DNA of 64,000 bases from Vulcanimicrobiota bacterium. Lineage in GTDB: Bacteria > Vulcanimicrobiota > Vulcanimicrobiia > Eremiobacterales > Eremiobacteraceae. Both the position numbers and the translations under genes were made by a program. The notes below the pieces were generated by a model, which was not told the DNA's origin, ran no database searches, and saw only the letters and a program-made list of their open reading frames with translations. The stretch covers positions 276,531 to 340,530 of the forward strand of contig CAWDWJ010000008.1 of NCBI GenBank assembly GCA_963806005.1, read 5' to 3'. Below are positions 14,082-43,056 of this stretch, in pieces (position 1 is the stretch's first letter; each line of letters opens with the position of its first letter).

Positions 14082-14157
14082 GGGGATGTAGCTCAGCTGG
14101 TAGAGCGCTTGCTTCGCATGTAAGAGGCCAGGGGTTCGAGTCCCCTCATCTCCACCA
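14082..14157 (+). tRNA. tRNA-Ala (anticodon CGC), CCA encoded
   Basis: Folded by hand into a 76-nt cloverleaf: acceptor GGGGATG/CATCTCC with the G3:U70 alanine identity pair, D arm GCTC/GAGC, anticodon stem CTTGC/GTAAG, loop TTCGCAT, T arm AGGGG-TTCGAGT-CCCCT. Confidence 0.95.
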
Positions 14158-14195
14158 CAGTCGCGCCTACGGCTAACAATCCTTGGCAGCACGCA

Positions 14196-14852: not shown

Positions 14853-14975
14853 ACTTTAGGACCATCTATTTCTTGTCCAACATACTTCAGGACCGCGTTT
14901 TGCGTTGACCTGCCGATCAGTATTAGCAAACCGGACCAACATGAACGTCGCGCCCATTCTCCTAGCGCGAGTCAA

Positions 14976-15986: not shown

Positions 15987-16156
15987 ATGCCCTCCCTTGA
16001 GCCCAGCGGCGTACCGCGCCAAGCGCTACCCGCCATCGGATCAGCCCAATCGTAACCACCAGCGGTAAACGCATCGTAAAATTCAAATCTTTGTACCGCC
16101 TGGCGTGACACGGACATCAACTCTCAAAGCGAAGCCTTGTGGGAGCACCCCATACC

Positions 16157-16221
16157 TGCATCAGGTTCTTGAAGTTAATTCGCATGTAAGAGGCCAGGGG
16201 TTCGAGTCCCCTCATCTCCAC
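16157..16221 (+). repeat. att-like repeat A: tRNA-Ala 3' half (16179-16221) with only about 22 bp of the conserved arm
   Basis: 43/43 identity to tRNA positions 14113-14155. The arm is limited to the CATCAGG..TTAA-proximal part; no heptamer block. Confidence 0.85.
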
Positions 16222-16242
16222 TCTTGGGTTGCGCTTTCGAGT

Positions 16243-19037
16243 CTAGACCTTGAGTGCTTCTTCGACCGCCTGATCTTCCGACCACGCCGCACCTTCGGCC
16301 GCGAGCTTTTCTATCTCCGCTTCGCTCAGCTGATCGCGCAGTGCGGCCATGAGCTTCTCGTGGCCCCACTTCTCCGTGGGCTCACGCTCATACCCACTTC
16401 TTTGTAGTTGCACATCGACGTAGCCGATGAGGCGCGCCGCATCGTGCATGATCTCCGCGCAGCGCCAAGAGCAGCGCAAAATGCTGCAACGCGATCGCGA
16501 TGCCGAGTGCATTTTGCGCTTGCCGCGCCCAGCGCAGACCCTCGCGATGCGGCCTCACGCGCTCCATCGACGTCTCCCAGCGCAATGCGATAGGCAGCGA
16601 TGTTGTATGTAGCTCACCGCCAAGATCGACGCGTTCTTACCACGCGCGTCAGATCTCTAGGGCCTCGCCTGCCAAGCGTAGTGCCTGCTCAACCTGCCCA
16701 TCGGCGAACTCCAACTCCGCGAGATTTCCCAGCACCACAGCTGTGCCCTGCCTCGTTTCCCAGCGCCTTGTACGCTGCAAGCGCCTGCGCATACAACTCG
16801 CGCCCGCGACGACATCGCCGCGAGCCCGCTGGATGCCCGCTCTGCGGATCAGGCAGTCAGCCACTCCCGGTTTATCTCCGTAACTCGCGCATCGCCGCAA
16901 GCGCGCGTGCGTTCACTCACTGGCCTCTTCAAACGGCCCATTTGAAAAAGACCGAAGCGCAAGAATGCAGCGCCCAGGCCTGCCCCATGCTCGTCGCCCA
17001 CCGACTGGTAGAGCGCGAGGGCGCGTTGCAGCGCAGTCGTGCTTGCGCTTGCCGGAGGAAATCTGGCTAAGCGCACGCCACAGCCGGGCCGCCACGTGCG
17101 GGTGGCATCGATTCATCAAGGCTCGCTTGTGCGCAGGCTCGATCCAATAGCGCCCCTCCACCGTGAGTCCGCCACGCAGCCATAGCATCTGCCAGCGCTC
17201 CGGCCACGGCACCACCCAGCGCCACATCGTGTCCGTCTTTGAGCGACCACTCCAACACGGCGCGGTAGTTGTCCAGTTCCCGTTCCACGCTCGCCAGCCA
17301 CGCCGCGGTCGAGCCTGTGCCGAAGCGTCTTATCGGCCTCTTGCGCCTGATCGCGAAAGTACTCGGCGTGACGGCGAGCCAGCTGTTCGCGCTGCGCCAG
17401 CTGCTGTCAGCTTCTCCAGCGCATAGGCGCGCGTGGATTCGAGCAAATGGTAGCGTTCTTGCTCGCCTGCGGTGTCGGCCACGACCAACGACTTGTCGGT
17501 CAGCGATGAGAGCAGGTCTAAGATGTCGATCTCATCGAGGTCCTCGCCGCTGCACACCGCCGTGGCCGCATCCAGACTGAAGCCTCCGGCGAAGATACCC
17601 ACCCGATTGAACAGCATCTGCTCCTGCGGGGTGAGCAGGTCGTAGCTCCAGTCGATGAGCGCGCCGAGCGTCTTCTGCCGCGGGAGTGCCGTGCGGCTCC
17701 CGCCGGTGAGAATCTTGAAGCGTTCGTTGAGCCGTTGGGCGAGGTTCGGGATGCTAAAGACCTTCACCCGAGCGCGGCAAGTTCGATGGCCAGCGGAATA
17801 CCATCCAGACGGCGGCATATGTCGGCGACAATCGGTGCGTTGTCGTCGGTCGAGCGCAAAGGACTTGTCAACCGACCGCGCCCGATCGACAAACAGCGCC
17901 ACCGCGCCAAATTCCATGATCGCTGCCGGCGTGAGATCGGCAATCTTATGCGGCACGTCGAGTGAGGGAAGCCGCAAGTACCTCTTCGCCACTCACCCCA
18001 GCGCCTGGCGTGACGTGGCAAGCAGGCTGCACATCAGGGCAACTGCGGATGATCTGCGTTGGCGATCGCGGCGACAGCTTCCAAGACATGCTCGCAGTTA
18101 TCCAAGATCAGCAGCAGCTTCTTGCGGCTCAGCCACTGCGGAATGGACTCGTCAATTCTGCGGCCCTCGACTTGGGGCATGCCCAATCTCTTTGGCGATA
18201 ACGCTTGAGACGAGTTCGGGGTCGGTGATCGGGCGCAAAGTCGACAAGCCACACGCCATCGGGATTGTGGTCGAGGACTTCGGCTCCCACTTGCAGCGCT
18301 AGCCGCGTCTTGCCGACGCCGCCGGAACCAAAGAGCGTCAGCAGCTTATGCTGACTCAGCAGAGACTTCACTTCTTCAAGGTCGTGCTCGCGACCGCGAA
18401 AGCTCGTCGGCTGAATGGGAAGGTTGTTCGGAATCGTATCGAGTGACTTGAGCGGCGGAAACTCTGCTGGCAGACCTTCGATGGTCAGCTGCCAGACTTG
18501 TTCGGGTTCGGTGAGGTCCTTGAGCCGGTGCGAGCCGAGATCAACCAGCGATGCGCCGGCGGGAAGATCGCTATGGGCTAGTTCGCGGGTGGAACCCGAC
18601 AAGAGAATCTGGCCGCCGTGGCCGATGGACATGAGTCGTGCCACTCGGTTGACGGCCGGTCCGAAGTAGTCGCCGTTACGCTCCGAAGCCTCGCCGGCAT
18701 GCAGCCCGATGCGTACTCGCAAGCCGCCAACTGCAGAAAAATCTTCTTCGCTCAAGGCCCGTTGCGCTTCGAACGCAGCCGCGACAGCATCCGAGACGCG
18801 GGCGAAAGCGACGCAAAACGCGTCGCCAATGGTCTTGAACACGTACCCGTCGTGTTGATCGATCGCATCGCGCTCAAAAGCGCATCATGGCGCTTCACCG
18901 CGTCATCCATCGCCTCGCGCTGCGATCTCCCAACGCTGCGTGGAGCCCTCAATGTCGGTAAAGAGAAACGTGACCGTGCCAGTAGGCAAAGAGACGGGGG
19001 CATTTGCCGCTGGGACTGCCCCCTGGGGGTTGGACAT
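16243..19037 (-). pseudogene. cyclase-STAND(NB-ARC-like)-TPR gene, decayed copy 1
   Basis: Homologous pieces lie in at least five different frame segments: N-terminus MSNPQGAVPAANAPVSLPTGTVTFLFTDIEGSTQRWE from 19037; FKTIGDAFCVAF...GSGGVGKTR in 18129-18842; LLLILDNCEH in 18034-18252; DICRRLDGIPLAIELAA in 17764-18021; C-terminus ...AAWSEDQAVEEALKV ending at 16243. Confidence 0.85.
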
Positions 19038-19192
19038 AGGCGTTGTATTCTGCTGGGGTGCTATTTGCGCCTACCCAACCATGCCGGGCATTGGGGCCAC
19101 ATCGGGCTGGCTCCGACTCATCACGTGAGGCCGTAAAGCTGGCTGAATCTGCGTGCCCGCAAGTTGCGTCCGCGTCACTCCAGTGAGTCTAA

Positions 19193-19365
19193 GCGCACGG
19201 CATATCGTACGGCAATCCCGCCATACCACCAGCAACATTCTGCAACTCCCTGCAACATTCTGCAACATGCGAACGCGCGTGTCATCTGGCGGAGCCTTAT
19301 TTCATCATGGTCCTGCAATTAGTTCGCATGTAAGAGGCCAGGGGTTCGAGTCCCCTCATCTCCAC
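19193..19365 (+). repeat. att-like repeat B: conserved arm (19193-19322) + tRNA-Ala 3' half (19323-19365)
   Basis: Core 43/43 identical to the tRNA. The arm carries GTACGGCAAT and four heptamers at 10-bp spacing (19230-19266). Confidence 0.9.
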
Positions 19366-19544
19366 AAACCTTCGCTACGCGAATTCACATGCTCGTTTGG
19401 ACTTCCCAACATCAGAGCGAGACTCATGCCAAATCGTTGTTGATTGCCGGCGACCCAACTTGTGGTCGAAATTCAGCCCCCGAAAGCGATGCAACGTGCG
19501 TCACGCCTAAGAAACGCCGGACGCTTGCGCTGGCCGCGTTACTT

Positions 19545-20015
19545 CTATTGCTTGATGAAGTTTACCGTGAACGGTGCAACGCCGCTTACCTGAAAGATCG
19601 TACCGCCCTTGGCCGTGACCCAGTGACGGACAAGGGCCGGAATAACAACGTAAGAACCTGGTCCGAGAGCGGTTGTCTTGGACCGATCCATCTTGTCGCC
19701 AACGCCGAACATTACCGTGCCGCTTAGAATGGTAAGGCGCTCGGTATCTGGATGCCAGTGCAATGGTATTGTATACCCATCGGGTAGCTTCAGCCGCATC
19801 GTGTACGGTGATCCGGTCTTTTTAGGATCACCATCCATTATCGCAACCTGTACGCTGGGCAGTATCTTAGATGGCATCCATTTTATGTCAACCGGTGTCA
19901 CCATCTTTGCGGCATTGGCGACACCCGACATCCCCGTTGTATTTGCCAAGGCAATCATACCCAAGCTCATGGCAATTACCGTGGACAGAAACGCTGCAAA
20001 AACCAACTTCTGCAT
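19545..20015 (-). CDS. secreted cupin-domain protein (module 3 cargo)
   Basis: Signal peptide MQKLVFAAFLSTVIAMSLG; cupin motif PLHWHPDTERLTILSGTV. Close paralog at 34712-35182. Confidence 0.8.
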   Translation of the reverse strand: MQKLVFAAFLSTVIAMSLGMIALANTTGMSGVANAAKMVTPVDIKWMPSKILPSVQVAIMDGDPKKTGSPYTMRLKLPDGYTIPLHWHPDTERLTILSGTVMFGVGDKMDRSKTTALGPGSYVVIPALVRHWVTAKGGTIFQVSGVAPFTVNFIKQ

Positions 20016-20080
20016 GATACCCTTCCCGTCGCGGTTGGCAGTTTAATCTATGCCGTTCAAACTCACAATACCGATGAACC

Positions 20081-20254
20081 GTACGGCACTCGTACGGCAA
20101 TCCCGCCTTAACACCAGCAACTTTCTGCACATCACAGCAACTTTCTGCAACGGACTAACGTAGAAGCTGCCCGGCGAACCACGATTTCATCAGAGTCTTG
20201 TGTTTAATTCGCATGTGAGAGGCCAGGGGTTCGAGTCCCCCTCATCTCCACCAC
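20081..20254 (+). repeat. att-like repeat C: arm (20081-20207) + tRNA-Ala 3' half (20208-20254)
   Basis: Core differs from the tRNA by one substitution (GTAAGA to GTGAGA) and one extra C in the T stem; identity runs through CCACCAC. The arm has a duplicated CGTACGGCA and the heptamer block. Confidence 0.85.
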
Positions 20255-20317
20255 GGCTCGTCTATCAATGTGCGCCACTATGCAACATGTGAGCGCGGCC
20301 TTGCCTCCACGTTCGCC

Positions 20318-23111
20318 TTAGACCTTGAGCGCTTCTTCGACCGCCTGATCTTCCGACCACGCCGCACCTTCGGCCGCGAGCTTTTCTATCTCGGCGTCCC
20401 TCAGATGCTCGCGCAGTGCGGTCATAAGTTTCTCGTAGCCCCACTTCTCGGTGGCCTCACGTTCCTACCCGAGTTCTTTGTATTGCATATTGACGTAGCC
20501 GATGAGCCGCGCCGCATTGTGCAGTTCGCCGCGCAGCGCCTAGAGCAGCGCGAAATGTTGCAACGCGATCGCGATGCAATATGCAGTTTGTGCTTGTCGC
20601 GCCAAGCGCAGCCCCTCGCGGGCAGCTTCACGCGCTCCATCGCACATCTCCCAGCGCAATGCGATAGGCAGCGATGTTGAGGTAACCAATCGCCAAGTTC
20701 GTCGCGTTCTTCCCACGCGCCAAGATCTCCAGGGCCTCGCCTGTCAGGCGCAGCGCCTGCTCGACCTGACCATCTCGCGAACTCCAGCTCCGCAAGATTT
20801 GCCAGCACCATAGCTGTTCCGGCCTCATTTCCCAGGGCCTTGAATGCGCCGCGAGCGCCTGCGCATACAACTCGCGCGCCGCGACAACATCGCCGCGATC
20901 CCACTGGATGAGCGCCTGCTGACTCAGGCAGTCGGCCACTCCCGGCTTATTCCCCAACGTGCGCATCGCCGCAAGCGCCCGTGTGTTCGCTTCGCTGGCC
21001 TCTTCAAGGTGGCCCATTTGAAAGAGACCAACGCCAGATAGTGTAAAGCGCCCAAGCCGCCCCATCTTGTCGCCTACCGATTCGTATAGCGCGAGGGCGC
21101 GTTGCGCATAGTCGTGCTTGCTCTTGCCCATGGAAAGCGTGGCTGATGCCCGCCACAGCCGGGCCGCTACCTGCGGGTGCACCGATTCGTCAAGGCCAAC
21201 TTGCGCAAGGTCGATCCAATAGCGTCCTTCGGCCGTGAGTCCGCCATCTCGCCAGAGCCGCTCCAGCGCTCCAGCCAGGGCACCACCCAACGCCATATCG
21301 TGTCCATCTTTAAGTGTCCATTCCAGTACGGCGCGGTAGTTGTCCAGTTCCACTTCCGAGTCGCCAGCCACGCCGCCAGTCGATCCCGCTGCCGAAGCGC
21401 TGGTCCGCCCCCTGCGCCTGATCGCGAAAATACTCTCGCGTGGCGGCGAGCCAGCGGTTCTCGTTCGCATGCCGCCATAAGCTTATCCAAAGCATATGCT
21501 CGAGTGCATTCCAGCAAACGGTAGCGTTCCTGCTCGCCTGTCGTGTCGGCCACAACCAGCGACTTGTCGGTCAGTGATGAGAGCAAGTCTAAAATGTCGA
21601 TGTCATCGATGCCCGTCGCCAGCTGCACACCGCCGTGGCCGCATCCAGGCCGAAGCCCCCGGCAAAGATGCCCAAACGGTTGAAGAGCATCTGCTCTTGC
21701 GCGGTGAGCAGGTCGTAACTCCAGTCGATGAGCGCACTCAGCGTCTTCTGACGCGGCAGCGCAGCACGGCTACCGCCGGTGAGGATCTTGAAGCGTTCGT
21801 TGAGCCGCTGGGCGAGCTTCGGGATGCTCAGAATCTTCACCCGAGCGGCTGCCAGTTCGATCGCTAGCGGAATACCATCCAGACGGCGGACAGATTTCAG
21901 CGACGATCGGGTGCATTGTCGTCGGTTAGAACGAAGCGGGTGTCGGATGCGATCGCTCGATCGACAAAGAGTGCGATCGCGCCATAGGCGGATGCTGTTT
22001 CTGCGGAAAGTCCCGCCAGTTGGTTCGGGCAGCGAAAGCGATGGCAAACGGTAGGTAAACACTCGCCACCGATGCCTAGCGCCTGACGTGACGTGGCGAG
22101 GATGCGCACCTTGGCCGCGGTGCTAAGAATCGCTGTGGCAAGTCCGGCCACAGCATCGATCAAGTGCTCGCAGTTGTCGAGAATCAGCAATAGGTGCTTG
22201 CGTTTCAGCCACTGCGGGATAGCCTCCGCAATTTTGCGTCCCCGCTGTTTGGGTGATGCCCACCACTTTGGCGATCAAGCTTGCGACAAGCTCGGGATCG
22301 GTGATTGGAGCCAGATCGACGAACCACGCGCCATCTGGGATACTCGTCTAGCGAGGTCGGCGGCGACTTGCACGGCAACCGCGTCTTGCCAATACCGCCT
22401 GCGCCGGATAGCGTCAGCAGACGGTGTTCACCGATCAATGACTTGACCTCCTCAAGGTCGCGCTCGCGACCGCGGAAGGTCGTGAGGTGTATCGGCAGGT
22501 TATTCGGCGACGCATCGAGTGATCGCAGCGCCGGAAATTCTTGCTGCAGGCCAGCGCCGCTCAGCTGCCATACATGCTCGGGCTCGGCGAGGTCTTTGAG
22601 GCGATGCAAGCCGAGATCGGTGAGCGCGACATCCGCCGGCGAGTCGCTGCGCACTAACTCGCGGCTCGCTCCAGAGACTAAGATCTGCCCTCCATTGCCT
22701 ATGGACAGCAAGCGCGCAACGCGGTTAACGGCTGGGCCGAAGTAATCGCCATCGCGCTCGTCGGCCGTTCCGGTGTGGATCGCCATCCGCACGCTGATGC
22801 CATTGACGCTTGAGAAATCCTCGGCTTTCAAGCGCTCGCTGTGCATCGAGTGCAGCCGCAATAGTATCTTCGGGCCGTCGGAACGCAACACAAAAAGCGT
22901 CGCCGACCGTTTTGAAAACAAACCCATGATGATGTTCGGTTGCCGTTCGCATAAGCGCATCATGGCGCGCGACTGCAACCTTCATCGCCTCGCGCTGGGT
23001 CTCCCAACGTTGCGTCGAGCCCGTGATATCCGTAAACAGAAACGTGACCGTGCCAGTAGGTAAAGTTACGAACTTCTTGGATTTCTCTTTCGCCCCACTC
23101 GCGCGTGGCAT
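20318..23111 (-). pseudogene. cyclase-STAND(NB-ARC-like)-TPR gene, decayed copy 2
   Basis: N-terminus MPRASGAKEKSKKFVTLPTGTVTFLFTDITGSTQRWE at 23111. Homologous pieces are spread over ORFs 22725-23111, 22205-22978, 21897-22190, 21589-22062, 21167-21628, 20628-21470 and 20422-20904. There is also an in-frame TAG at 20465-20467 where copy 1 has TAT. Confidence 0.85.
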
Positions 23112-23336
23112 GAGGGTCAGGGTTCGGCTGTGTGGAGGTCGAGCCCTAGTCTATGGAGCCGGCGCCGGGCTAGGCGGAGCGACTAAGACCCTGTTCTGCT
23201 TACCAAAAACGCGGAGGCACCGCGTGAGGGTCTCGGCTCGACATGAACATCATTATCCATATTTGAATCTTCGAGACGCCAGGGCCCAATTGGGAGAGCA
23301 GGGCGGATGATTTCTGTACCAGCAGTACTAACTCGG

Positions 23337-23509
23337 GCGCACGGCATATCGTACGGCAATCCTACCTAAACACCAGCAACTTTCTGCACATTACTGCAAC
23401 ACTCTGCAACATGCGAACGCCCGTGCTAGGTGAAAAAGCTCGGTTTCATCAGGGCCGCGTAATTAATTCGCATGTAAGAGGCCAGGGGTTCGAGTCCCCT
23501 CATCTCCAC
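23337..23509 (+). repeat. att-like repeat D: arm (23337-23466) + tRNA-Ala 3' half (23467-23509)
   Basis: Core 43/43 identical to the tRNA; arm collinear with B, E, F and G. Confidence 0.9.
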
Positions 23510-23567
23510 ACTCAAGATTTTGCAGCTGTGTCGATTCTGTTGGCGCTAGTAGACCTCAAAATTCTTC

Positions 23568-23687
23568 TCAGACCTTCAGCGCTTCTTCGACCGCCTGATC
23601 TTCCGACCACGCCGCAACTTCTCTCGCAAGCTTTGCGAATTCAGCGTCTCTGAGCTTCTCCCGCAGCTGGGCCATCAACTTGACCGC
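23568..23687 (-). pseudogene. orphan 3' tail (last ~39 codons) of a former cyclase-STAND gene
   Basis: Encodes AVKLMAQLREKLRDAEFAKLAREVAAWSEDQAVEEALKV-stop, collinear with the C-termini of copies 1 and 2. Lies out of frame behind and under the end of the intact gene 23641-26460. Confidence 0.75.
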
Positions 23688-26460
23688 AGACAGCGAGGGC
23701 TTCTTCAAGGGCCTGCTCTTGCGACCAAACTGCGCCCTCGGTCATGAGGGCTGCAAAACGCACTTCTCCAAGTTGATCGCGCAGCGATCCTATTAAAGCA
23801 TCAATATCCATAGGAACGCGTCTTGTCTCGCGCACCCAGCCCTTGCTGTCCGCTTTCCTGTAACCCAGGAGCTTCGCCGCCCGATCAAGGTCACGGTCGT
23901 GTGCTGCGAGGGCTATGCACGGCTGCAGCGTTACTTCACGCGCGTCGAGCACCTCATCGCGAAGGATTCGCAGGGCGCTGCGCATGGCCGACCGAGCCTC
24001 ATCAAAGCGTTCCGTCAAAGTGAGGTACGCGGCCTTGGCACTGAATATGAGCGCTTCCATGTCGTTTTCGTGGAGCGTCTGCACTATGGCTAGCGCTTCT
24101 TCCGTCAGCTCGAGCGCCCGGGGCACATCATTCGTCGCTTTCTCCAACGCCGCTTCATCCAAGAGCATGATCGCCAGGTTGCGGTCAACCCCCCGCTTCT
24201 TGTAGTAGCGTAATGCGGCGGCGAAGTGGTGCCTCGCGAGTTCGAACTGTTTTGTGTGCGTGTACAGTTTGGCCAACTGCTGCAGCGAGGCTGTTTCACG
24301 ATAAATGTCATGAGCGCGCCGAGCAGCGTCGAGCGCCTCGGTCAATGCTGATTTCGCTTCGTCAAGCCGGTCATATGTTGTGTTCATTTCACCAAGATAA
24401 AAGAGGGCTCGGGCCAATATACGGTCATCCCCAAGCTTACGCGCTGCAGCTACAGCACGTTCGATGGTGGTTTCGTAGACCTCGTCTTCCGAGAGAGCTA
24501 TATGCGTGCGCGTCAGCGCTAAATCGATGGCAACGCTCAAACCAGGGTTACTGTCTGGCGCGATGCTCGCGCGTGCCGCTTCCAGCCAGTGCCGGCCTTC
24601 CAGTTTGTGACCAATCCAGTAAGCCCAGAGGTGTTCGGCAATTTCCGCTCCCAGGGCGCGATCGTTGCCTTGATCTAAGCACCATTGCAAGGCGGCGCGG
24701 ATATTGTCCAGCTCGGCTTCAATGAAGGCCAACCAGGCGGGCGCTGGGAGCACTTGCCACCGCTCGGCGATCTGAAGCGCGTATCTCGCGAAAAAGCGTG
24801 CGTGCCGCTGGGACGTTGCGTCGAATTCTGCTTGCCTTCGCACGAGCTCCAACCCGTATTGACGCAAAGACTCCAGCAACCGGTAGCGCTGCGTCTCGGC
24901 GCCAGCATCAACCGTGACGAGTGATTTATTAACGAGCGATGATAGAATGTCGAGGATCTTAAACTCGTCAATTGTCTCGTCCGAACAGACGTCACTCGCC
25001 GCTTCGAGCGTCCAGCCGCCTTGGAAGATGGAGAGACGGCGGAAGATCGTTCGTTCAGCCTCGTTGAGCAGCTCGTAGCTCCAGTCGATTGCTGCGCGCA
25101 TGGTCTGCTGGCGCGGGAGAGCCGTGCGATCGCCCCCGGTCAGCAACCGGAAACGCTCATCCAAACGTTGTGACAGTTGCTTGAGATTGAGAATGGTCAC
25201 ACGGGCAGCCGCCAGTTCTATTGCCAAAGCGATGCCGTCCAGACGGCGGCAAATGTCGGCGACGATCGGCGCCGCATCGTCGGTGAGCATGAACCGCGCG
25301 TCAATCGCTGCAGCTCGCGCCACAAAAAGGGCCACAGCCTCATGTTTGAGGGCCTCTTCTGCCGACAACGCGACATTACGGGAAGGCACGGATAACGAAG
25401 GCATACGGTAGACCTGCTCGCCCCGCACGTTGAGAACTTCGCGGCTCGTTGCGAGCACCGCCACCCTCGGACAATTCTTGACCATAGCTGCCACCACGCG
25501 CGCCGTCTCGCCGACGATATGTTCGCAGTTGTCGAGGATAAGCAAGAGGCTCTTGTTCTTGAGGTACAAGCAGAGGTCGTCCAGAGGCTTGCGCACCGGT
25601 TGCAGTTGCAGGTCGAAGACCTCAGCGATTGCGCTCACAATCCCGTCGTCGGTTCCCATTTGGGCGAGGTCGACGAACCAAACGCCATCACCGGATCCGT
25701 CAAGCACATCTGCTCCTACCTGCAGCGCCGTACGAGTCTTTCCTACTCCTGCAGTACCAACAAGCGTCAGCACTTGAGATTTGGCGAGCAGCGACTTGAT
25801 GTCGCTTAGCTCATGCTCGCGACCAACAAAAGGAGTCGCCTGGCGCGGAAGATTGTTCGGTAGCGTCTCAAGCGAGCGCAGCGATGGAAAAATTTCTTCA
25901 AGTCCGGGCGCGACCAACTGGTATACGTGCTCGGGGCGGACGAGATCGCGCAGCTGATGCTGGCCGAGGTCCCGAACGCCGGACTGTGCAGGCATCAATC
26001 CTTGTAGCAGATCGGTCGCGGCTTGGGAAATGAGCACCTGGCTGCCATGACCGATCGCCAAGAGTCGCGCGACCCGGTTGACCGGTGGCCCGAAATAATC
26101 TCCGTCACGTTCTTGCGCGGTCCCCGTGTGGATCGCCATGCGCACGCGTATACCCTCCACCGAAGCGAAATCTTCAACGCTGAGTTCGCGCTGTGCATCT
26201 ATGGCCGCCGCTATGGCGTCTTGTGGCCGCGCAAAGGCGACACAAAACGCGTCGCCCACCGTCTTGAACACCCAACCGCGATACTTTACCGCGGCTGCGC
26301 GCAGCAGCTCGTCGTGGCGCTTTACTGCCGCTTCCATAGCCTCGCGGTGCTGCTCCCAACGCTGCGTCGAGCCTTCGATGTCGGAAAATAGAAAGGTCAC
26401 GGTACCCGTCGGTAGAGTGACGGGGCCTTTGGGCTCGGCCCCACTCTCGGGTGGCATCAT
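23641..26460 (-). CDS. class III adenylate/guanylate cyclase - STAND (NB-ARC-like P-loop NTPase) - TPR protein, intact (module 5 cargo)
   Basis: Start taken at MMPPESGAEPKG (26460) by alignment with the paralogs. Cyclase motifs FSDIEGSTQRWE, FKTVGDAFCVAF, GDYFGPPVNRVARL. Walker A GTAGVGKTR, Walker B LLLILDNCEH. About 400 aa of TPR-like helical repeats. Confidence 0.85.
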   Translation of the reverse strand: MMPPESGAEPKGPVTLPTGTVTFLFSDIEGSTQRWEQHREAMEAAVKRHDELLRAAAVKYRGWVFKTVGDAFCVAFARPQDAIAAAIDAQRELSVEDFASVEGIRVRMAIHTGTAQERDGDYFGPPVNRVARLLAIGHGSQVLISQAATDLLQGLMPAQSGVRDLGQHQLRDLVRPEHVYQLVAPGLEEIFPSLRSLETLPNNLPRQATPFVGREHELSDIKSLLAKSQVLTLVGTAGVGKTRTALQVGADVLDGSGDGVWFVDLAQMGTDDGIVSAIAEVFDLQLQPVRKPLDDLCLYLKNKSLLLILDNCEHIVGETARVVAAMVKNCPRVAVLATSREVLNVRGEQVYRMPSLSVPSRNVALSAEEALKHEAVALFVARAAAIDARFMLTDDAAPIVADICRRLDGIALAIELAAARVTILNLKQLSQRLDERFRLLTGGDRTALPRQQTMRAAIDWSYELLNEAERTIFRRLSIFQGGWTLEAASDVCSDETIDEFKILDILSSLVNKSLVTVDAGAETQRYRLLESLRQYGLELVRRQAEFDATSQRHARFFARYALQIAERWQVLPAPAWLAFIEAELDNIRAALQWCLDQGNDRALGAEIAEHLWAYWIGHKLEGRHWLEAARASIAPDSNPGLSVAIDLALTRTHIALSEDEVYETTIERAVAAARKLGDDRILARALFYLGEMNTTYDRLDEAKSALTEALDAARRAHDIYRETASLQQLAKLYTHTKQFELARHHFAAALRYYKKRGVDRNLAIMLLDEAALEKATNDVPRALELTEEALAIVQTLHENDMEALIFSAKAAYLTLTERFDEARSAMRSALRILRDEVLDAREVTLQPCIALAAHDRDLDRAAKLLGYRKADSKGWVRETRRVPMDIDALIGSLRDQLGEVRFAALMTEGAVWSQEQALEEALAVCGQVDGPAAGEAQRR

Positions 26461-26630
26461 TGTTCGACTTCGCGTTTCTGCGGATGGAGGCCTAGTAGAC
26501 CCCACGCCTAGGCAGGGCGCACAACGCACAGGACACCCGTAAGGCCACGCAGGTAATCGTGTAATGCTCTTCTAGGCAGCTATTCAAATTGGGCTTGAGA
26601 GCTGGCGCGCTCGTGGCCGGAGCGTTCTAC

Positions 26631-26800
26631 GCGCACGGCATTTGTACGGCAATCCCGCCCCAACACCAGCAACTCTCTGCAACTTACTGCAACATTCTGC
26701 AACGTGCGAACACAGATGCTATCTGGCGGAGCTCGATTTCATCAGGGTCCGGGAATTGATTCGCATGTAAGAGGCCAGGAGTTCGAGTCCCCTCATCCCC
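26631..26800 (+). repeat. att-like repeat E: arm (26631-26759) + degenerate tRNA-Ala 3' half (26760-26800)
   Basis: Core has CAGGGG to CAGGAG and CATCTCC to CATCCCC changes, then diverges. Arm is intact with four heptamers. Confidence 0.85.
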
Positions 26801-26902
26801 GTCATCCCAAGCCTTTGTGACGATAAGTTCTCGCGCTGCGCTCAATGCGAACTTGTTTTGCTATAGTGAGCTTAGTGTAGGTGGAGTTGGTATCCACTAC
26901 CA

Positions 26903-27376
26903 CTAGCGCGTCCACGAGCTCTCCCAGACGCGGGAGAGCAGTCGTTTGAGCTGGGAGAAATCCTTGGGCCCAAGCTCAGCGCTCCATTCGTGCTCTATGT
27001 CGCCGAGGATATCGTGGACCCTTGAGTATGCGGCGCGTCCACGCTTGGTAAAGCGGACAATTCGCGCGCGGCCTTCGTTCGGCGCGTTGGACCGGGTAAT
27101 ATATCCGAGATCTTCGAGGCTCCGAAGTAGTTGGTTCATGGCTTGTTTGCTCATACCGGCCCGCTCGGCGAGCGTGCCCGGACGAACTCCATCCGGACCA
27201 GGAAATTGCAGCACCGCCATATGCGGCACACGCAGCTCTGCGAATCCTGCGGCGTTGAGCTCGCTGATAATGCGGCGGTGTATCGCCTGGGCGGGCACGC
27301 GCAGCAAAGCCCCGATAAGCATATCCTTTGCATTGAGCGATGGACTCAATGCTGCTGGATCCTTGATGGAACCCAT
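26903..27376 (-). CDS. MarR-family transcriptional regulator (module 6 cargo)
   Basis: Winged-helix pattern GVRPGTLAERAGMSKQAMNQLLRSLEDLGYITR. Confidence 0.85.
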   Translation of the reverse strand: MGSIKDPAALSPSLNAKDMLIGALLRVPAQAIHRRIISELNAAGFAELRVPHMAVLQFPGPDGVRPGTLAERAGMSKQAMNQLLRSLEDLGYITRSNAPNEGRARIVRFTKRGRAAYSRVHDILGDIEHEWSAELGPKDFSQLKRLLSRVWESSWTR

Positions 27377-27382
27377 TCGGGG

Positions 27383-27865
27383 CTATGCTTGAGGATGTGG
27401 CGGAGCCGGCGTGAGGCCGTGGCGGAGCATGATCTCGGTCATCTTCGCTCGGTCTGGCGGCCCCCCGGCCGCTGCCTTAATCACGTCGGCGCTTTCGCGG
27501 AAATACTGCGGGCCCAGTACGGCCGGCGTGATAACGCAGAGAGCCTTTACGTCCTGACTGCCATTGTTGTCGAACCGGTGAATGGCGCCGCGCGGAATGC
27601 AGAGCGCCTGGCCCGGCCCGACGTCGATCTGCTCTCCGTCAACGGTCCAGGTCAGCACCCCACTAATACCATAGATCGTTTCCTCGTAGTGGTCGTGGCT
27701 ATGCGCGGGGGCCTCCAGACGTTGCGATCCCGGGACAAAGAGCTCGAAGGCTGCGACGCTGCCATTCGAGTTGTCCCTGGTGAGCAAGAAGCGCACCGTG
27801 AGCGGTCCGAGGCTAATGGTTTCGTCGGAAGGATTGATCTGGAGGTCGATGGTCTGCTGCGTCAT
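27383..27865 (-). CDS. cupin-domain protein (module 6 cargo)
   Basis: AHSHDHYEETIYGISGVL and IPRGAIHRF cupin motifs. 6-nt gap to marR, so a probable operon. Confidence 0.8.
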   Translation of the reverse strand: MTQQTIDLQINPSDETISLGPLTVRFLLTRDNSNGSVAAFELFVPGSQRLEAPAHSHDHYEETIYGISGVLTWTVDGEQIDVGPGQALCIPRGAIHRFDNNGSQDVKALCVITPAVLGPQYFRESADVIKAAAGGPPDRAKMTEIMLRHGLTPAPPHPQA

Positions 27866-28012
27866 GGGCGTTTCTCCTTCTGGTAAATTTACTTTACTTG
27901 ATTATTGTAAACGCCATTTACTAAAATGTCAAGACTCAAGGGTGGACCCGACTATCCCAGGGCTTCCGCGAAGTGAAAGCTTGCCTCGAACTTGGGAGCT
28001 GCGGACGGCTAG

Positions 28013-28184
28013 CCGTACTGCAATTGTACGGCAATTGCTCCGTAACACCAGCAACGTTCTGCAACTTACTGCAACATTCTGCAACGAGCGCACGCCCGTG
28101 CTATCTGAAAAAGCTCGATTTCATCAAGGTCGCGTAATTGATTCGCATGTAAGAGGCCAGGGGTTCGAGTCCCCTCATCTCCAC
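28013..28184 (+). repeat. att-like repeat F: arm (28013-28141) + tRNA-Ala 3' half (28142-28184)
   Basis: Core 43/43 identical to the tRNA; arm contains GCAATTGTACGGCAATTGC and the heptamer block. Confidence 0.9.
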
Positions 28185-28610
28185 AAATTGAACTTGTATC
28201 ACCGGCGCAGATTGGTCAGCAAACGGTCAGCAACCTAGGCTCGAGCGAGCACGTTGGTTTTCGGAGCCCTTGGCTTATTGGGTTCGTTGCCCTGTGGAAA
28301 ATGCTGACTTCTACATGGTCCATGTTAGTGCAAGTCGATGACCATGCTGAGTTCTCGCTTAGGCTCTCGCGGCGATCTGGCTGCGCAAATGAGAACTATT
28401 GCAGAACTGGCAGGCCAACTTCCCGCTTCCAACCCCGCCGCTGACCTCTACAGCCTCCATTAGCGCAGACATCCACGTCTCAATTATAGCCCTAGAGTGT
28501 TCAGCGCCTCATCGAATCGGACACCGCCCTGGCGCCAATTCACAATCAAGCCCTTGATGATTGCATCGGGTAAACGTCCAATGCCGATTGCCCTCATCGA
28601 CTCGGTGTGC

Positions 28611-29261
28611 TCAGAACCCGTCGCCCGGCATTTGTTGCCAGCACCATTGCGCGTAAATGGCCTTTGGAGCGACAACCGGTCCGCGCACTTCGTCCGAAAT
28701 GGTGTCGACATACTCAATCGGGGTATGGTTTATCATGGCAAAATGGCTTGGGTCGCATACGGTACGCCGATATCTGATAAATGAGACGGCGCTTTCCACG
28801 TGGACGATCGTCGGAATATCGTTGAGCTGCGCGGTCATCGTCAAATCTCGTCTGTCCATGATGGACAGTATCACAGATCCTTGGCGTTGCGATAGAGCGA
28901 TCCCGGCTAACGATCCGATCGGCGCGACGATCCTGAGTGCAAACCTCGGATTCAGCCAATGATACTCGACACTGGTCACCTCGCCCTGGCAGGTCGGTTC
29001 GTTGAAGTTGATGTTAATCAGACCTGCCCGAGTTTCACCTAGATAGCTGCCACTGACCCCCTCCTTCCAAATTTTCACGGGCGCTTCACCGGCGATGGCA
29101 GCGATGGTCGACTGAACCGCTTGTTCGCACTCAACGCTCACCGGCTCAGCGTCACGCATCGTTGTGTTCGGAGAGATGGATGGCCCATACGGCCCAGAGC
29201 CGGCCGTCAGGGCAAGCGACACGAGAACGACGAGGATTAACAATGGGAGCGCATGCTTCAC
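28611..29261 (-). CDS. hypothetical secreted protein (module 7 cargo)
   Basis: Signal peptide MKHALPLLILVVLVSLALTAG. No family recognised. Lower-G+C stretch. Confidence 0.6.
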   Translation of the reverse strand: MKHALPLLILVVLVSLALTAGSGPYGPSISPNTTMRDAEPVSVECEQAVQSTIAAIAGEAPVKIWKEGVSGSYLGETRAGLININFNEPTCQGEVTSVEYHWLNPRFALRIVAPIGSLAGIALSQRQGSVILSIMDRRDLTMTAQLNDIPTIVHVESAVSFIRYRRTVCDPSHFAMINHTPIEYVDTISDEVRGPVVAPKAIYAQWCWQQMPGDGF

Positions 29262-29314
29262 GGGTCGCCATTTCGTTTCCGACCACGTGGTTTGCCTCCC
29301 GCGGCTGAGCTAAC

Positions 29315-31600
29315 CTACGCGACTCCGTCGCTGCGCTTTTCAATAAACAACTGCCGGAAGACAGTGACCTTCAAGAAATCTAGTGGCACCAACAACACAG
29401 CGACCCCCACGAAAAGCGCGAGCACAATAGACAACGGCAGCGGCGCCATGGCAACGCCATAGACCGCCAAGACAGAGACAGCCACAATGTCGGCAAGTGT
29501 GGTAAACAGCACCCATCGGCTGGGGCGCGATGCGTAAAGATGATCGCGCTCTCTAACCAAATAGATCGTGGCCTGTCCCGTGTATATCATCGCCAGAAAC
29601 GTTAGTGTTTGCAGCCGTGGCAGGTCGAGCGCCCATTCGCGCTTGCCAACGAAGTACGCCACAAGGGTGAAAGCCGTCCACGCGAGCGCAAGAGGCAGAG
29701 CGCCTGCAAGCAGAGTTGGTATGTTCCAACGGTTGGGGGTACGGGAAATGCGCACGCGATCCTTGGCTAATGACAACGTGACGAAGTCGTTGGCGAAGAG
29801 CATGAATATCATGAGTCGCGGAGTCAAGAGCATAACACCGCCGAGAAAGAAGAACCCAGATGACAACAGCAAGGCCGCGTGGAGCGCCTTCACCATTTTG
29901 TTCAGTGTCCACGTCAACAGGCGTTGAAAGACGGCCCGCCCGGTATCAACAGCGCTGACAGTACCAGCAAGCCCGGGCTCAGTCAGCACCAGACCTGCGG
30001 CGGACTTGGCAATGTCCGTTGCCGAAGCAACTGCCACGCCCACATCTGCTTGGCGTAAGGATGGGGCGTCGTTGACACCGTCGCCGGTCATGCCAACGAC
30101 ATGTGCGTCGCGCTGCAGCGCTTTGATAATCCGCAGTTTGTCTTCCGGATAGATGCCTGCATCAAACTCGTGAATATCGAGCTGGGCCGCGACTGTTCGT
30201 GCGGTCGCTTCCGTATCCCCCGTCAACATGCGCACGTCGATGCCGCGCTCTCGAAGGTTGCGAACAACTGAGTTTGCATCAGCGCGTACAGTGTCGGAAA
30301 AAGCGACCAGTCCGGCCAGCTGCAATTTTTCGCCCGATCCAGCCGCAACCGCCAGGATCCGCGCTCCGGACGAAGCGAGGCGTGTAACATCAGCCTCGAT
30401 GTCGCGTTCAGGGGCAGCCAACTGAGCAACTATCGTTGGAGCGCCTTTGACGATTGTGAGGACGCCCTGAGTAGTCCGGACTTGAGCCTGCGATCGCTTC
30501 GTTAGAGGGTCGAATGGCTGAAAGTCCACCCGTGTGCCGAGCGAACGGCCCGTGCCTGCAACGTCGAGAATGGCGATGTCAAATGGGTCCCGCGTGCCTG
30601 GGTCACATGCGCAGGCAGCAAGCGCAGAAACGTCCTCCGCAGCGTACGGCGGATATGCCACGATTTCGCACACGCGAAGGCGGTTCTCTGTGATGGTCCC
30701 CGTTTTGTCAGTGCACAATTCATCCATTGTCGCAGCCTGGTCGACCGCCGATAGCCGTGTGACAAGCACGCCTTTGTTGGCAAGGTCGAGGGCCGCGAGC
30801 GCAGTCGTTAACGTAAAGACGGCAGGAAGCGCGACCGGCACGGCTGTGACAAGTAAGATGAGCACAAAAGGGAACATCGCAGCCAACGGCAACCCTTTTG
30901 CCGCGGCGTATGCGAATAGCGCTCCGACCAGCACGGCATCGAAGAGCACCAAATACCGGACGACCGCGGAGACAACCGCATCCATTTGTCGTGGTTCCGT
31001 GGCTTCATGAACCAGCTCTGCGGTTTTCCCAAAGCGCGTCGACATGCCCGTTGCGACAACCGTGCCCGCCGCCTCGCCGCGGGTCACTATCGATCCCGAG
31101 TACACGGGGTCCCCAGCGGCGCGCTCGAGCGGAATCGATTCACCCGTCAGCGCCGACTGGTCGACGGTCATGTTGCCGCTGAAGATTTCCGCGTCTGCGG
31201 GAACAAAGTCACCCATTCGCAGGTACACGGCGTCGCCCGGCACAATCGCCTCGGCTCCAATCGATTGCCATTGACCATCGCGCAGAACGCGCGCGGTGAC
31301 CTGCAACCGCCGGCGGAGCAGCTCGAGTGCTCGCTGCGCCCGATCTTCCTGCGAAAAGCTCAAAAAGGCGTTGAATACCAGAAGTGCGGCTATGATCGCG
31401 CTTTCCAGCGGCCTGCGGCGCAAGACCTCAAGGATGATGCTCGCCTCAAGCATCCACGGTACCGGACCCCAAAGCTTAAGCGCGAACCTAATAAGAGGCG
31501 TGGAAGGGGGTCGCGGTATTTCGTTTGAGCCAAACCTATTGAGGCGATCAAGCGCTTCACTTTTGGTCAAACCTTGGTTCTGCTGCGGCGCAAGGTGCAT
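29315..31600 (-). CDS. cation-translocating P-type ATPase, type IIIA (H+-ATPase)-like (module 7 cargo)
   Basis: Phosphorylation motif CTDKTGTITENRL, hinge GMTGDGVNDAPSLRQADVGVAV, N-terminal GLTKSEALDRLNRFGSNEI. The subtype is judged only from motif resemblance. Confidence 0.8.
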   Translation of the reverse strand: MHLAPQQNQGLTKSEALDRLNRFGSNEIPRPPSTPLIRFALKLWGPVPWMLEASIILEVLRRRPLESAIIAALLVFNAFLSFSQEDRAQRALELLRRRLQVTARVLRDGQWQSIGAEAIVPGDAVYLRMGDFVPADAEIFSGNMTVDQSALTGESIPLERAAGDPVYSGSIVTRGEAAGTVVATGMSTRFGKTAELVHEATEPRQMDAVVSAVVRYLVLFDAVLVGALFAYAAAKGLPLAAMFPFVLILLVTAVPVALPAVFTLTTALAALDLANKGVLVTRLSAVDQAATMDELCTDKTGTITENRLRVCEIVAYPPYAAEDVSALAACACDPGTRDPFDIAILDVAGTGRSLGTRVDFQPFDPLTKRSQAQVRTTQGVLTIVKGAPTIVAQLAAPERDIEADVTRLASSGARILAVAAGSGEKLQLAGLVAFSDTVRADANSVVRNLRERGIDVRMLTGDTEATARTVAAQLDIHEFDAGIYPEDKLRIIKALQRDAHVVGMTGDGVNDAPSLRQADVGVAVASATDIAKSAAGLVLTEPGLAGTVSAVDTGRAVFQRLLTWTLNKMVKALHAALLLSSGFFFLGGVMLLTPRLMIFMLFANDFVTLSLAKDRVRISRTPNRWNIPTLLAGALPLALAWTAFTLVAYFVGKREWALDLPRLQTLTFLAMIYTGQATIYLVRERDHLYASRPSRWVLFTTLADIVAVSVLAVYGVAMAPLPLSIVLALFVGVAVLLVPLDFLKVTVFRQLFIEKRSDGVA

Positions 31601-31919
31601 GAGCGTTATCTGGCCCGCGAAGTCAGATCCGTCGTGGAATTCTCCTCGCTAAGCCTGCCGGACGTCCTCGAGATGTTCGCGTTCAAGCGCTTACGTGTGC
31701 GCGGGGCGTAGAGACAAGCACGTTAGCAACTCCCGGTATAGATTACGCTCATACACGGCACTGTCGCGATCACTAGCGATCAGGTGTGCGCGGATAAGGA
31801 ATTTTCGCGGCATGTCATCCAACGGGTCACCTTCAATCATTTCTCTCGCAAGAGCGCCAGCGACCGGAGCATCACCTCTTTTTAGCGCATCGTCAGCCAA
31901 TCAACGCTCAGCGTCCCTT

Positions 31920-33163: not shown

Positions 33164-33199
33164 GCGTATTGCATGACAGGCATGTAGCGATCAGACCAT

Positions 33200-43046: not shown

Positions 43047-43056
43047 GCAGAGAGTG

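What the first reader, a model, noticed from the sequence alone, without database searches (positions are those of the whole stretch)
23568..23687. Recombination scar: orphan C-terminal tail behind the intact cyclase-STAND gene
Between repeat D and the intact gene lies a second complete copy of the family's last ~39 codons (AVKLMAQLREKLRDAEFAKLAREVAAWSEDQAVEEALKV-TGA, stop at 23568-23570). The intact gene has its own ...WSQEQALEEALAV but no stop there. It reads 16 further codons (CGQVDGPAAGEAQRR) through the orphan tail in a different frame. A further short echo of the TAGACCT.. motif lies at about 23545-23566. This looks like replacement of an older resident gene by recombination within the 3' coding region, leaving the old cassette end attached to the att site.
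Basis: seen in the sequence. Interest (0 to 1): 0.6.

Follow-up and report, generated by a model that had tools for sequence, protein, structure and literature searches.

The report
Leftover gene tail from paralog replacement
A 37-codon leftover of an older sensor gene sits just behind the present gene, and together with a matching leftover at the gene's start it shows that the middle of the old gene was swapped for a different family member, an ordinary but unusually clear recombination scar.

Summary
On the minus strand, 23681-23568 is a 37-codon tail plus TGA. It matches the tails of the two neighbouring broken cyclase-STAND genes (83.5% of 97 nt, E 3e-25; 79.5% of 112 nt, E 1e-23). It matches the intact gene's own tail only weakly (32 nt, E 0.002). 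The intact ORF (23641-26460, 939 aa) has no stop at its family's usual end and reads 15 codons through the orphan in another frame.

The intact gene is a mosaic. Codons 1-42 and the orphan tail belong to one lineage ("R/KV-type", ending ..AAWSEDQAVEEALKV). Codons ~51-924 belong to another ("AVC-type", ending ..AVC plus 0-12 residues). Informative sites give max-chi2 85.6, reached by 0 of 5000 permutations.

The interior of a resident cassette gene was therefore replaced. The 5' crossover lies at the end of a conserved block. The 3' join has no homology (4 unassigned bases, 23685-23682).

The "echo" at 23545-23566 is not above chance. The junction was found in none of 31 related genomes. No reads were available to check the assembly.

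This is a known kind of scar (homology-facilitated illegitimate recombination, C-terminal displacement). The scan's index showed no such scar on other DNA.

The parts
23568..23681 (-). Orphan tail: the last 37 codons (KLMAQLREKLRDAEFAKLAREVAAWSEDQAVEEALKV) plus TGA of a lost R/KV-type cyclase-STAND gene
   Evidence: E 3e-25 and 1e-23 to the D and B tails. In some searches, homology to R-type tails in many genomes starts at 23681/2.
23682..23685 (-). 3' junction: 4 bases (GGTC on the gene strand) that cannot be assigned to either parent, with no homology across the join
   Evidence: AVC-type homology to the G015 ortholog ends at 23686. No R-type hit other than self starts before query position 16, which is 23685.
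23641..23685 (-). Read-through extension of the present ORF: GQVDGPAAGEAQRR plus TGA (23641-23643), read through the orphan tail one base out of its frame
   Evidence: The extension is absent from all 27 fetched homologs.
23686..26334 (-). Imported AVC-type body (about codon 43 to Cys924), including the gene's own tail ..WSQEQALEEALAVC
   Evidence: 73.6% nt identity to G015:C347 over 2733 nt. The body is 72-78% aa identical to P0003-P0006.
26335..26460 (-). Resident R/KV-type 5' end: codons 1-42 (MMPPESGAEPKGPVTLPTGTVTFLFSDIEGSTQRWEQHREAM). The crossover lies between codons 42 and 51 (26335-26308).
   Evidence: 93% nt identity to G023:C1:135412-135534 and G024:C3:241401-241523, genes otherwise about 46% aa identical. 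Of 14 informative sites, 13 are R/KV-like.
23510..23567 (.). 58-nt spacer between the orphan stop and the att core copy, collinear with R-type cassette ends in relatives
23467..23509 (+).
26626..26802 (+). Arm (about 135 nt, with GTACGGCA x2 and TGCAAC repeats) plus a degenerate core copy (4 mismatches) that closes cassette E
14082..14157 (+). Intact tRNA-Ala(CGC), the anchor of the cassette array

Best explanation
The orphan tail is a recombination scar. Cassette E of a tRNA-Ala-linked cassette array once carried a complete R/KV-type adenylate cyclase-STAND(NB-ARC)-TPR gene. Its interior, from about codon 43-50 to 38 codons before the stop, was replaced by the matching part of a diverged paralog (AVC-type, about 44% aa identical over the body to the lineage whose N-termini best match).

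The 5' crossover was homologous and in frame. It falls at the end of the about 90-nt block (LPTGTVTFLFSDIEGSTQRWE..) that is almost invariant among paralogs. The AVC-type donor lacks the conserved KV-type 3' block, so the 3' end was joined illegitimately, right at the end of the donor ORF. The donor stop codon was lost, the resident's last 37 codons remained, and the new ORF runs 14 foreign codons into them out of frame before a chance TGA.

This has the topology of homology-facilitated illegitimate recombination, or of ectopic gene conversion with one non-homologous end.

Shown here: the two lineages, both breakpoints, and collinearity with unreplaced cassettes in relatives.
Inferred: that it was a single event, its direction (R-type resident, AVC-type incoming), and the enzymology. 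The scar itself probably has no function.
For: 1. Orphan against the tails of B and D gives E 1e-23 and 3e-25. Against the gene's own tail there is only a 32-nt HSP, E 0.002.

2. C-termini of the 27 fetched homologs fall into two classes, and the gene's own tail is AVC-type.

3. Boundaries: AVC homology ends at 23686. R-type homology starts at 23681/2 in independent hits from several genomes.

4. 5' mosaic: in residues 1-47, 13 of 14 informative sites are KV-like. In residues 51-939, 211 of 229 are AVC-like. Max-chi2 is 85.6, reached by 0 of 5000 permutations.

5. Nucleotide sliding window:
- nt 1-135: 88% to an R-type gene against 62-67% to the AVC ortholog.
- nt 136-2790: 61-87% AVC against 27-71% R.
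- last 90 nt: 79% R against 9% AVC.

6. Database-wide:
- The 13 proteins best matching residues 1-47 (38-44 of 47) are only 43-57% identical over the body. 11 of the 13 carry tails 25-29/37 identical to the orphan.
- The 10 best overall hits (64-78% over the body) match the N-terminus at 4-33/47 and the orphan at 11-18/37.

7. Arm, core, spacer and orphan are collinear with full-length R-type cassette ends in G018 and G020.

8. AVC-type genes at 4 of 4 examined loci in relatives have no arm or core, which fits the cassette frame being R-type.
Against: The evidence has these limits:
- Only one genome shows the junction (0 of 31 other family genomes), so no pre-event or donor allele was recovered.
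- The 165 nt upstream of the start codon match nothing, so the resident cannot be traced beyond the ORF.
- No AVC-type donor is in the 70%-complete assembly.
- The assembly could not be checked with reads. The best run holds 0.08 of the sampled words.
- The AVC and KV groups for the chi-square test were chosen from hits ranked by similarity to this same protein.
- A sister orphan in G020 loses homology within about 6 nt of the same point but has unrelated DNA upstream. A single simple event does not predict this.
Confidence: 0.7

Rival explanations
1. The scar comes from a deletion, not a replacement. An AVC-type gene and an R-type gene lay head to tail, either as tandem genes in one cassette or in adjacent cassettes. 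One illegitimate deletion then removed everything from the AVC stop codon to 38 codons before the R-type stop.
For: - Head-to-tail paralog pairs with 12-nt spacers exist, for example G015:C347, where the AVC ortholog is followed directly by another family member. Several triplets appear.
- Internal-deletion derivatives exist: the G020 265-aa mini-gene and the G000:C8:206629-207066 remnant.
Against: A deletion does not explain why the first 42 codons of the surviving gene are R-type. A second, independent conversion at the 5' end would be needed, so this model takes two events where replacement takes one.
Confidence: 0.13
2. The junctions are an assembly artefact. The metagenome assembler switched between paralogs or strains, so the junctions do not exist in any cell.
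For: - The 5' breakpoint lies at the end of a block shared at 93% identity among paralogs, which is where assemblers can switch.
- No reads were available.
Against: - The 3' join has no shared sequence that could mislead an assembler.
- The genome is in 8 contigs, and the array of 3-kb repeats is resolved.
- No second near-identical copy of either end is in the assembly. Within G000, one search found only the query itself and a 76% match.
Confidence: 0.06
3. The last about 118 nt of the gene were duplicated in tandem. The copies then diverged, or the distal copy was converted by the neighbouring B/D paralogs.
For: The two tails lie 118 nt apart, start to start (family D3).
Against: - The two tails are only about 61% alike, and each matches a different paralog lineage.
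- The distal copy is collinear with R-type cassette ends through the spacer and core.
- The 5' mosaic is left unexplained.
Confidence: 0.03
4. The orphan tail is a functional element. It might be a silent 3' cassette kept for switching the C-terminus, or a target for programmed frameshifting into the KV tail.
For: - A sister orphan exists in G020.
- The last about 50 nt of the tail are 94-100% identical over 30-54 nt between paralogs that are otherwise about 45% aa identical.
Against: - The G020 orphan is truncated at its 3' end and sits in an unrelated context.
- No promoter-like or terminator-like site, no Rfam match and no Pfam domain was found for the tail.
- A frameshift would give a protein with two tails in series.
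Confidence: 0.03

Closest known systems
Homology-facilitated illegitimate recombination (HFIR). Described for natural transformation in Acinetobacter, Streptococcus pneumoniae and Pseudomonas stutzeri, as cited in PMC5361080 (passages read). PMC3240628: abstract only, from the search listing.
   Same: One end of the incoming DNA is anchored by homology, here the conserved 5' block. The other end is joined without homology. Recipient DNA between the two points is replaced.
   Different: Neither the route of DNA entry (transformation or an intragenomic paralog) nor the enzymes are known here. The anchor is a paralog-conserved coding block of about 90-126 nt, not orthologous flanking DNA.
C-terminal displacement that leaves 'orphaned' 3' regions in Rhs, CDI and T6SS effector-immunity loci (Kirchberger et al. 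2017, PMC5361080, passages read, which cites Jackson et al. 2009)
   Same: A new variable part enters behind a constant 5' region. The old 3' end is pushed downstream and stays as an orphan.
   Different: Here the orphan is only 37 codons of a conserved tail, not a toxin tip with its immunity gene. Only one orphan is present, not a string. The proteins are cyclase-STAND-TPR sensors, not polymorphic toxins.
Tandem accretion of integrase-less elements at a tRNA gene: CIMEs (Guedon et al. 2017, PMC5704250, passages read) and tycheposon islands (bioRxiv 10.1101/2020.12.28.424599, passages read)
   Same: This is the setting of the scar. An intact tRNA is followed by direct repeats of its 3' part. 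Each repeat closes a unit that has no integrase, and older units are pushed away from the tRNA.
   Different: Units here are 0.9-5 kb, mostly one or two genes. Six of seven share a conserved arm of about 135 nt. No matching integrase was found on the contig. This setting is context, not the finding itself.

Membership tests
HFIR-type replacement scar | One junction lies inside a stretch of donor-recipient homology | tested here: met
   The 5' switch falls between codons 42 and 51, directly after a block 93% identical to R-type genes of another genus.
HFIR-type replacement scar | The other junction has no homology, or at most microhomology | tested here: met
   AVC homology ends at 23686 and R-type homology starts at 23681/2, leaving 4 unassigned nt.
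HFIR-type replacement scar | Recipient sequence between the junctions is lost, and recipient sequence outside them is kept | tested here: met
   R-type codons 1-42 and the last 37 codons are kept and the interior is AVC-type.
HFIR-type replacement scar | The donor entered as foreign linear DNA, by transformation or conjugation | not testable with these tools
   No donor allele was found in G000. AVC-type genes do exist in the genus (G015, 72% aa identity).
Rhs/CDI-type orphan module | The orphan keeps a complete variable tip with its cognate immunity gene and can be re-used | tested here: not met
   The orphan is 37 codons of a conserved tail, 58 nt from the att core, with no ORF behind it.
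Adenylate cyclase - STAND (NB-ARC) - TPR proteins | Class III cyclase domain, then an NB-ARC/AAA NTPase, then TPR repeats | tested here: met
   Pfam hits: Guanylate_cyc 9.6e-13 (residues 41-193), NB-ARC 1.4e-6 (245-365), TPR_12 1e-9 and TPR_MalT 2.4e-9.
tRNA-linked tandem accretion (CIME / tycheposon-like island) | Direct repeats of the tRNA 3' part flank each unit behind an intact tRNA | tested here: met
   The tRNA plus 7 copies of its 3' 43 nt. Five copies are exact, one has 4 mismatches and one has 1 mismatch and 1 indel. A 30-mer from the core gives 6 matches against 0 in 100 shuffles.
tRNA-linked tandem accretion (CIME / tycheposon-like island) | A tyrosine integrase of matching specificity, in the array or acting in trans | tested here: inconclusive
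   No PF00589 hit on contig C8. There are 3 hits over the cut-off (4 in all) on C1 and C2, of untested specificity, and the genome is 70% complete. The unknown ORFs tested (two of cassette A, one of cassette G, one overlapping ORF in cassette F) have no Pfam or PHROGs hit.
tRNA-linked tandem accretion (CIME / tycheposon-like island) | Variable unit content at the same tRNA in related genomes | tested here: met
   Arm-plus-core copies behind tRNA-Ala(CGC): G020 has 3, G018 has 1 plus further core copies, G023 has 1 and G016 has 1 (G016 is unpublished).
Integron | intI next to attI, and cassettes ending in attC | tested here: not met
   No integrase-family hit on the contig. The repeats are tRNA-derived cores with a shared arm. 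Folding of an attC-like structure was not tested.

The most novel reading that the evidence does not exclude
The scar may be one visible failure of a recurrent process. In this family the near-invariant 5' block (codons about 17-42) and the near-invariant last about 50 nt would act as recombination handles, letting whole sensor bodies (NB-ARC plus TPR) be swapped between paralogs and into att-flanked cassettes. A scar appears only when the donor lacks the 3' handle, as AVC-type genes do.

Three things would then be traces of the same process: the sister orphan in G020 with nearly the same 5' limit, the G020 mini-gene, and the G000:C8:206629-207066 remnant. That remnant's 5' breakpoint (after ..KRHDALM) coincides with this gene's 5' crossover.
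Probability: 0.15. Interest if true: 0.55.

Novelty: new member of a known kind. Interest (0 to 1): 0.35.

Why it matters
The locus preserves both junctions of a paralog-replacement event. Direction and mechanism can therefore be read from the sequence, which is rarely possible.

It shows three things:
- The large cyclase-STAND-TPR family of Eremiobacterota diversifies by exchanging gene bodies between distant paralogs (about 44% identity), not only by point mutation or duplication.
- A gene inside an att-flanked cassette can be re-loaded without moving the cassette.
- An ORF annotated as intact can carry a foreign 14-residue C-terminus made from out-of-frame pseudogene DNA.

For annotation, the 939-aa product should be flagged as a chimera. 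The scar does not point to a new mechanism.

Tried and rejected
1. Close AVC-type loci in public contigs. The search for related loci in genome contigs and metagenome contigs returned only relatives of 41-63% identity. The genomic context of the 77% relatives P0003 and P0004, and of P0026 and P0094, could not be seen.

2. Right-hand boundary of the resident upstream of the ORF. The 165 nt between the start codon and the arm match nothing in cassettes B and D, G018, G020 or the AVC loci, or in 401 genomes of the phylum (the leftmost hit starts at query position 182).

3. Search of 1.84 billion representatives with the 37-aa orphan. It gave 17 hits, all of 32-454 aa and at most 76% identical. 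No intact gene has a closer tail than cassette D.

4. Read support. No run holds more than 0.08 of the sampled words, so read laying was not used and nothing is concluded from these runs.

5. The 'echo' motif at 23545-23566 is not above chance.

6. Functional signals around the scar. There are no promoter-like or terminator-like sites in 23300-23900, no Rfam family other than the tRNA in 13000-38000, and no Pfam domain for the tail.

7. Positional orthology of cassette E with G018's second cyclase cassette. Only the core and about 140 nt behind it match the window's cassette G. None of the other cassette proteins is encoded in the G018, G020 or G023 loci. This was left open.

8. The tail census in G000 listed 13 tail sites. 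Its HSP filter did not list the orphan itself, so it is not a complete count.

9. Literature. A search for 'Eremiobacterota' together with 'adenylate cyclase' found 0 papers.

Full report
**Setting.** The window lies in a metagenome-assembled genome (8 contigs, 70% complete). Homolog names place it in Eremiobacterota.

An intact tRNA-Ala(CGC) at 14082-14157(+) is followed by seven direct copies of its 3' 43 nt, from anticodon loop to discriminator+C. The copies end at 16221, 19365, 20251, 23509, 26802, 28184 and 33160. Five are exact, the one ending at 26802 has 4 mismatches, and the one ending at 20251 has one mismatch and one indel. A 30-mer from the core occurs 6 times against 0 in 100 shuffles.

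Six of the seven copies, all but the one ending at 16221, are preceded by a conserved arm of about 135 nt (about 180 nt with the core). The arm contains two GTACGGCA motifs and three or four TGCAAC repeats.

The units between the copies are:

| Cassette | Coordinates | Content |
|---|---|---|
| A | 14156-16221 | two ORFs with no family hit |
| B | 16222-19365 | cyclase-STAND gene, broken |
| C | 19366-20251 | cupin |
| D | 20252-23509 | cyclase-STAND gene, broken |
| E | 23510-26802 | the intact cyclase-STAND gene |
| F | 26803-28184 | MarR + cupin |
| G | 28185-33160 | unknown ORF, P-type ATPase, cytochrome c |

The ORFs tested show no integrase domain and no PF00589 hit lies on this contig. 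Arrays with the same arm and core follow tRNA-Ala(CGC) in same-genus genomes G020, G018 and G016 (G016 is unpublished) and in G023 of another genus, with different content. This looks like tandem accretion of integrase-less units at a tRNA, as described for CIMEs (PMC5704250, passages) and tycheposon islands (bioRxiv 10.1101/2020.12.28.424599, passages). It is the context of the finding, not the finding itself.

**The observation.** On the minus strand, the intact ORF (ATG 26460, stop 23643-23641, 939 aa) ends ...MTEGAVWSQEQALEEALAVCGQVDGPAAGEAQRR. One base out of register, 23681-23571 reads KLMAQLREKLRDAEFAKLAREVAAWSEDQAVEEALKV, followed by TGA at 23570-23568.

Cassettes B and D end ...EKLMAALRDQLSEAEIEKLAAEGAAWSEDQAVEEALKV(TAG) and ...EKLMTALREHLRDAEIEKLAAEGAAWSEDQAVEEALKV(TAA).

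Searched against the whole window, the orphan matches as follows:

| Compared with | DNA match | Protein match |
|---|---|---|
| D tail | 83.5% of 97 nt, E 3e-25 | 30/37 |
| B tail | 79.5% of 112 nt, E 1e-23 | 28/37 |
| gene's own tail | 32 nt, E 0.002 | 18/36 |

The stop codons of B, D and the orphan lie 21, 66 and 58 nt from the preceding core copy.

**Two lineages.** The 27 fetched homologs fall into two C-terminal classes.
- The closest relatives of the intact gene are P0003 and P0004 (77%), P0006 (74%) and P0005 (71%). With the next tier (about 60-67%) they end ..EEAL(A/S)(A/V/I)C followed by 0-12 variable residues. I call these AVC-type.
- More distant members (54-62%) end ..AAWSEDQAVEEALKV. 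I call these KV-type, and the sub-group containing B and D R-type.

None of the 27 has GQVDGPAAGEAQRR. So the Cys after ..LAV is ancestral, and the extension of 14 residues is not.

**The 3' junction.** The nearest genomic AVC-type ortholog is G015:C347 (72% aa). It aligns with cassette E from window 23686 upward, which is the Cys codon. It ends ..AICKEFTSTEVHPTK and is followed 12 nt later by the start of another family member.

In the other direction, R-type tails from many genomes align with the orphan starting at 23681 or 23682. No hit other than the window itself starts before 23685. Four bases (GGTC, 23685-23682) belong to neither parent, and there is no homology across the join.

None of the 31 other genomes of the family contains the junction.

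A sliding comparison showed that residues 1-40 are 90% identical to the KV-type P0026 but only 60-70% identical to the AVC-type relatives.

I scored sites where E agrees with only one group. The groups were AVC (P0003-P0006) and KV (P0026, P0029, P0030, P0031, P0033). In residues 1-47, 13 of 14 informative sites are KV-like. In residues 51-939, 211 of 229 are AVC-like. The best single breakpoint gives chi2 85.6, reached by 0 of 5000 permutations. The caveat is that the groups were picked from hits ranked on this same protein.

At DNA level, nt 4-126 of the ORF (down to window 26335) are 93% identical to G023:C1:135412-135534 and G024:C3:241401-241523. Those genes are only about 46% identical to E overall. 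In all 401 phylum genomes searched, no hit covers the 181 nt upstream of the ORF.

A three-way nucleotide window compared E with an R-type gene of G023 and the AVC ortholog of G015:

| Segment of the ORF | Identity to R-type | Identity to AVC-type |
|---|---|---|
| nt 1-135 | 88% | 62-67% |
| nt 136-2790 | 27-71% | 61-87% |
| last 90 nt (the orphan) | 79% | 9% |

**An independent prediction.** If both ends come from one resident gene, proteins that best match E's first 47 residues should carry tails like the orphan. A database search restricted to residues 1-47 gave the 13 best hits I examined (12 fetched, plus P0026). I compared them with the 10 best overall hits:

| Group | N-terminal 47 aa | Body (residues 51-924) | Tail vs orphan |
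|---|---|---|---|
| 13 best N-terminal matches | 38-44/47 | 43-57% | 25-29/37 in 11 of 13 |
| 10 best overall hits | 4-33/47 (the 4 is the N-terminally truncated P0006) | 64-78% | 11-18/37 |

The two exceptions in the first group are P0142 (13/37) and P0150 and P0026 (22/37 each), which makes three below 25; P0142 is the only one with a different tail type. The best N-terminal match, P0094, even shares the orphan's ..KLMAALREKL.. motif.

**Direction.** The orphan, the spacer, the core copy and the arm align as one collinear block with the ends of full-length R-type cassette genes in G018 (77.8% over 351 nt) and G020 (77%). R-type genes sit in arm-and-core cassettes in both relatives. AVC-type genes at the four other loci examined (G015, G003, G019, G026) have no arm or core nearby, although two of those contigs are short. 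So the cassette frame is R-type and the AVC body is the newcomer.

**Mechanism.** The simplest account is a single patch replacement.
- The 5' side was a homologous, in-frame crossover at the end of the only long block that is nearly invariant among paralogs.
- The 3' side was an illegitimate join. The AVC donor's 3' end is too diverged from the KV block to recombine (only a 32-nt HSP).

This is the topology of homology-facilitated illegitimate recombination. The same logic has been proposed for orphaned 3' regions in Rhs, CDI and T6SS effector loci (PMC5361080, passages).

The consequences are a lost donor stop codon, a 14-residue foreign C-terminus and a dead 37-codon remnant. I found no promoter-like or terminator-like site, RNA family or protein domain that would suggest a function for the remnant.

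Shown: the lineages, both breakpoints and the collinearity. Inferred: a single event, its direction, the enzymology and the donor's origin. No AVC-type copy other than E is in the 70%-complete assembly.

**Rivals.**
- A deletion that fused neighbouring genes explains the 3' scar but not the R-type 5' end.
- A local duplication is contradicted by the lineage assignment of the two tails.
- An assembly chimera cannot be excluded without reads, since no run holds the region. However, the 3' join offers no shared sequence for an assembler to switch on.

**Unexplained.** G020:C4:428599-428690 is a sister of the orphan. It is 87% identical, shares the derived ..LREKLRDAE-AKLAR.., and loses R-type homology within about 6 nt of the same point. 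Yet it lacks the last 6 codons and has unrelated DNA upstream, and it lies about 130 nt behind a 265-aa mini-gene (cyclase domain plus the last about 70 codons).

In G000, outside the window, C8:206629-207066 holds the first about 55 codons joined to the last about 65 codons of an R-type gene. Its 5' breakpoint falls after ..KRHDALM, the same place as E's 5' crossover.

These may be chance, shared ancestry, or signs that breakpoints in this family cluster at the edges of its conserved end blocks. I give the last reading about 15%.

**Verdict.** It is a clear example of a known kind of scar in an uncultured phylum, of moderate interest. Claims that rest on the unpublished genome G016 are limited to two side remarks: a one-cassette array at its tRNA-Ala, and synteny of its right flank with window 48021-49924.

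Noticed in passing
window 14082-33160: tRNA-Ala(CGC) is followed by seven units, each closed by a copy of the tRNA's 3' 43 nt. Six have a shared arm of about 135 nt with two GTACGGCA motifs and 3-4 TGCAAC repeats at about 10-nt spacing. No integrase is on the contig. Unit content differs in G020, G018, G023 and G016 (G016 is unpublished).
   Followed up: partly
window 16243-19136 and 20318-23111 (minus strand): The cyclase-STAND genes of cassettes B and D are broken. tblastn pieces fall in 5 and 7 HSPs across all three frames, and D has in-frame stops. B is 81-82% identical in DNA to intact cassette genes in G020 and G018.
   Followed up: partly
window 33161-48000: The island may reach further than the last clear core copy. 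There is a weak arm remnant at 35245-35281 (E 8e-4). Window 36288-37237 is 87.6% identical to the single cassette cargo of G016, whose right flank matches window 48021-49924. Both rest on the unpublished genome G016. A fourth family member (P0021, KV-type, 926 aa) lies at 44225-47005(+).
   Followed up: partly
L091 (G020:C4:427099-430190), positions 574-1592: A 265-aa mini-gene (cyclase domain joined to the last about 70 codons of an R-type gene) is followed about 130 nt later by a truncated orphan tail. That orphan is 87% identical to the window's orphan.
   Followed up: partly
G000:C8:206629-207066 (outside the window): Remnant of an R-type gene: the first about 55 codons (one frameshift, ending ..KRHDALM) are joined to the last about 65 codons.
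   Followed up: no
window 23568-23620 and family tails: The last about 50 nt of the KV-type tail (..AAWSEDQAVEEALKV plus stop) are 94-100% identical over 30-54 nt between paralogs that are otherwise about 45% identical in protein. Whether this exceeds what codon bias and amino-acid conservation would give was not tested.
   Followed up: no
L061 (G015:C347), positions 1-738: The AVC-type ortholog in G015 is followed 12 nt after its stop by the start of another family member on the same strand. Runs of two or three head-to-tail paralogs also appear in G018:C1, G020:C4 and G023:C1.
   Followed up: no
window 23641-26802: Cassette E (GC 0.57-0.60) and the whole array (GC 0.51-0.65) are poorer in G+C than the flanks (0.66-0.67). 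The AVC ortholog in G015 is also 0.60.
   Followed up: no
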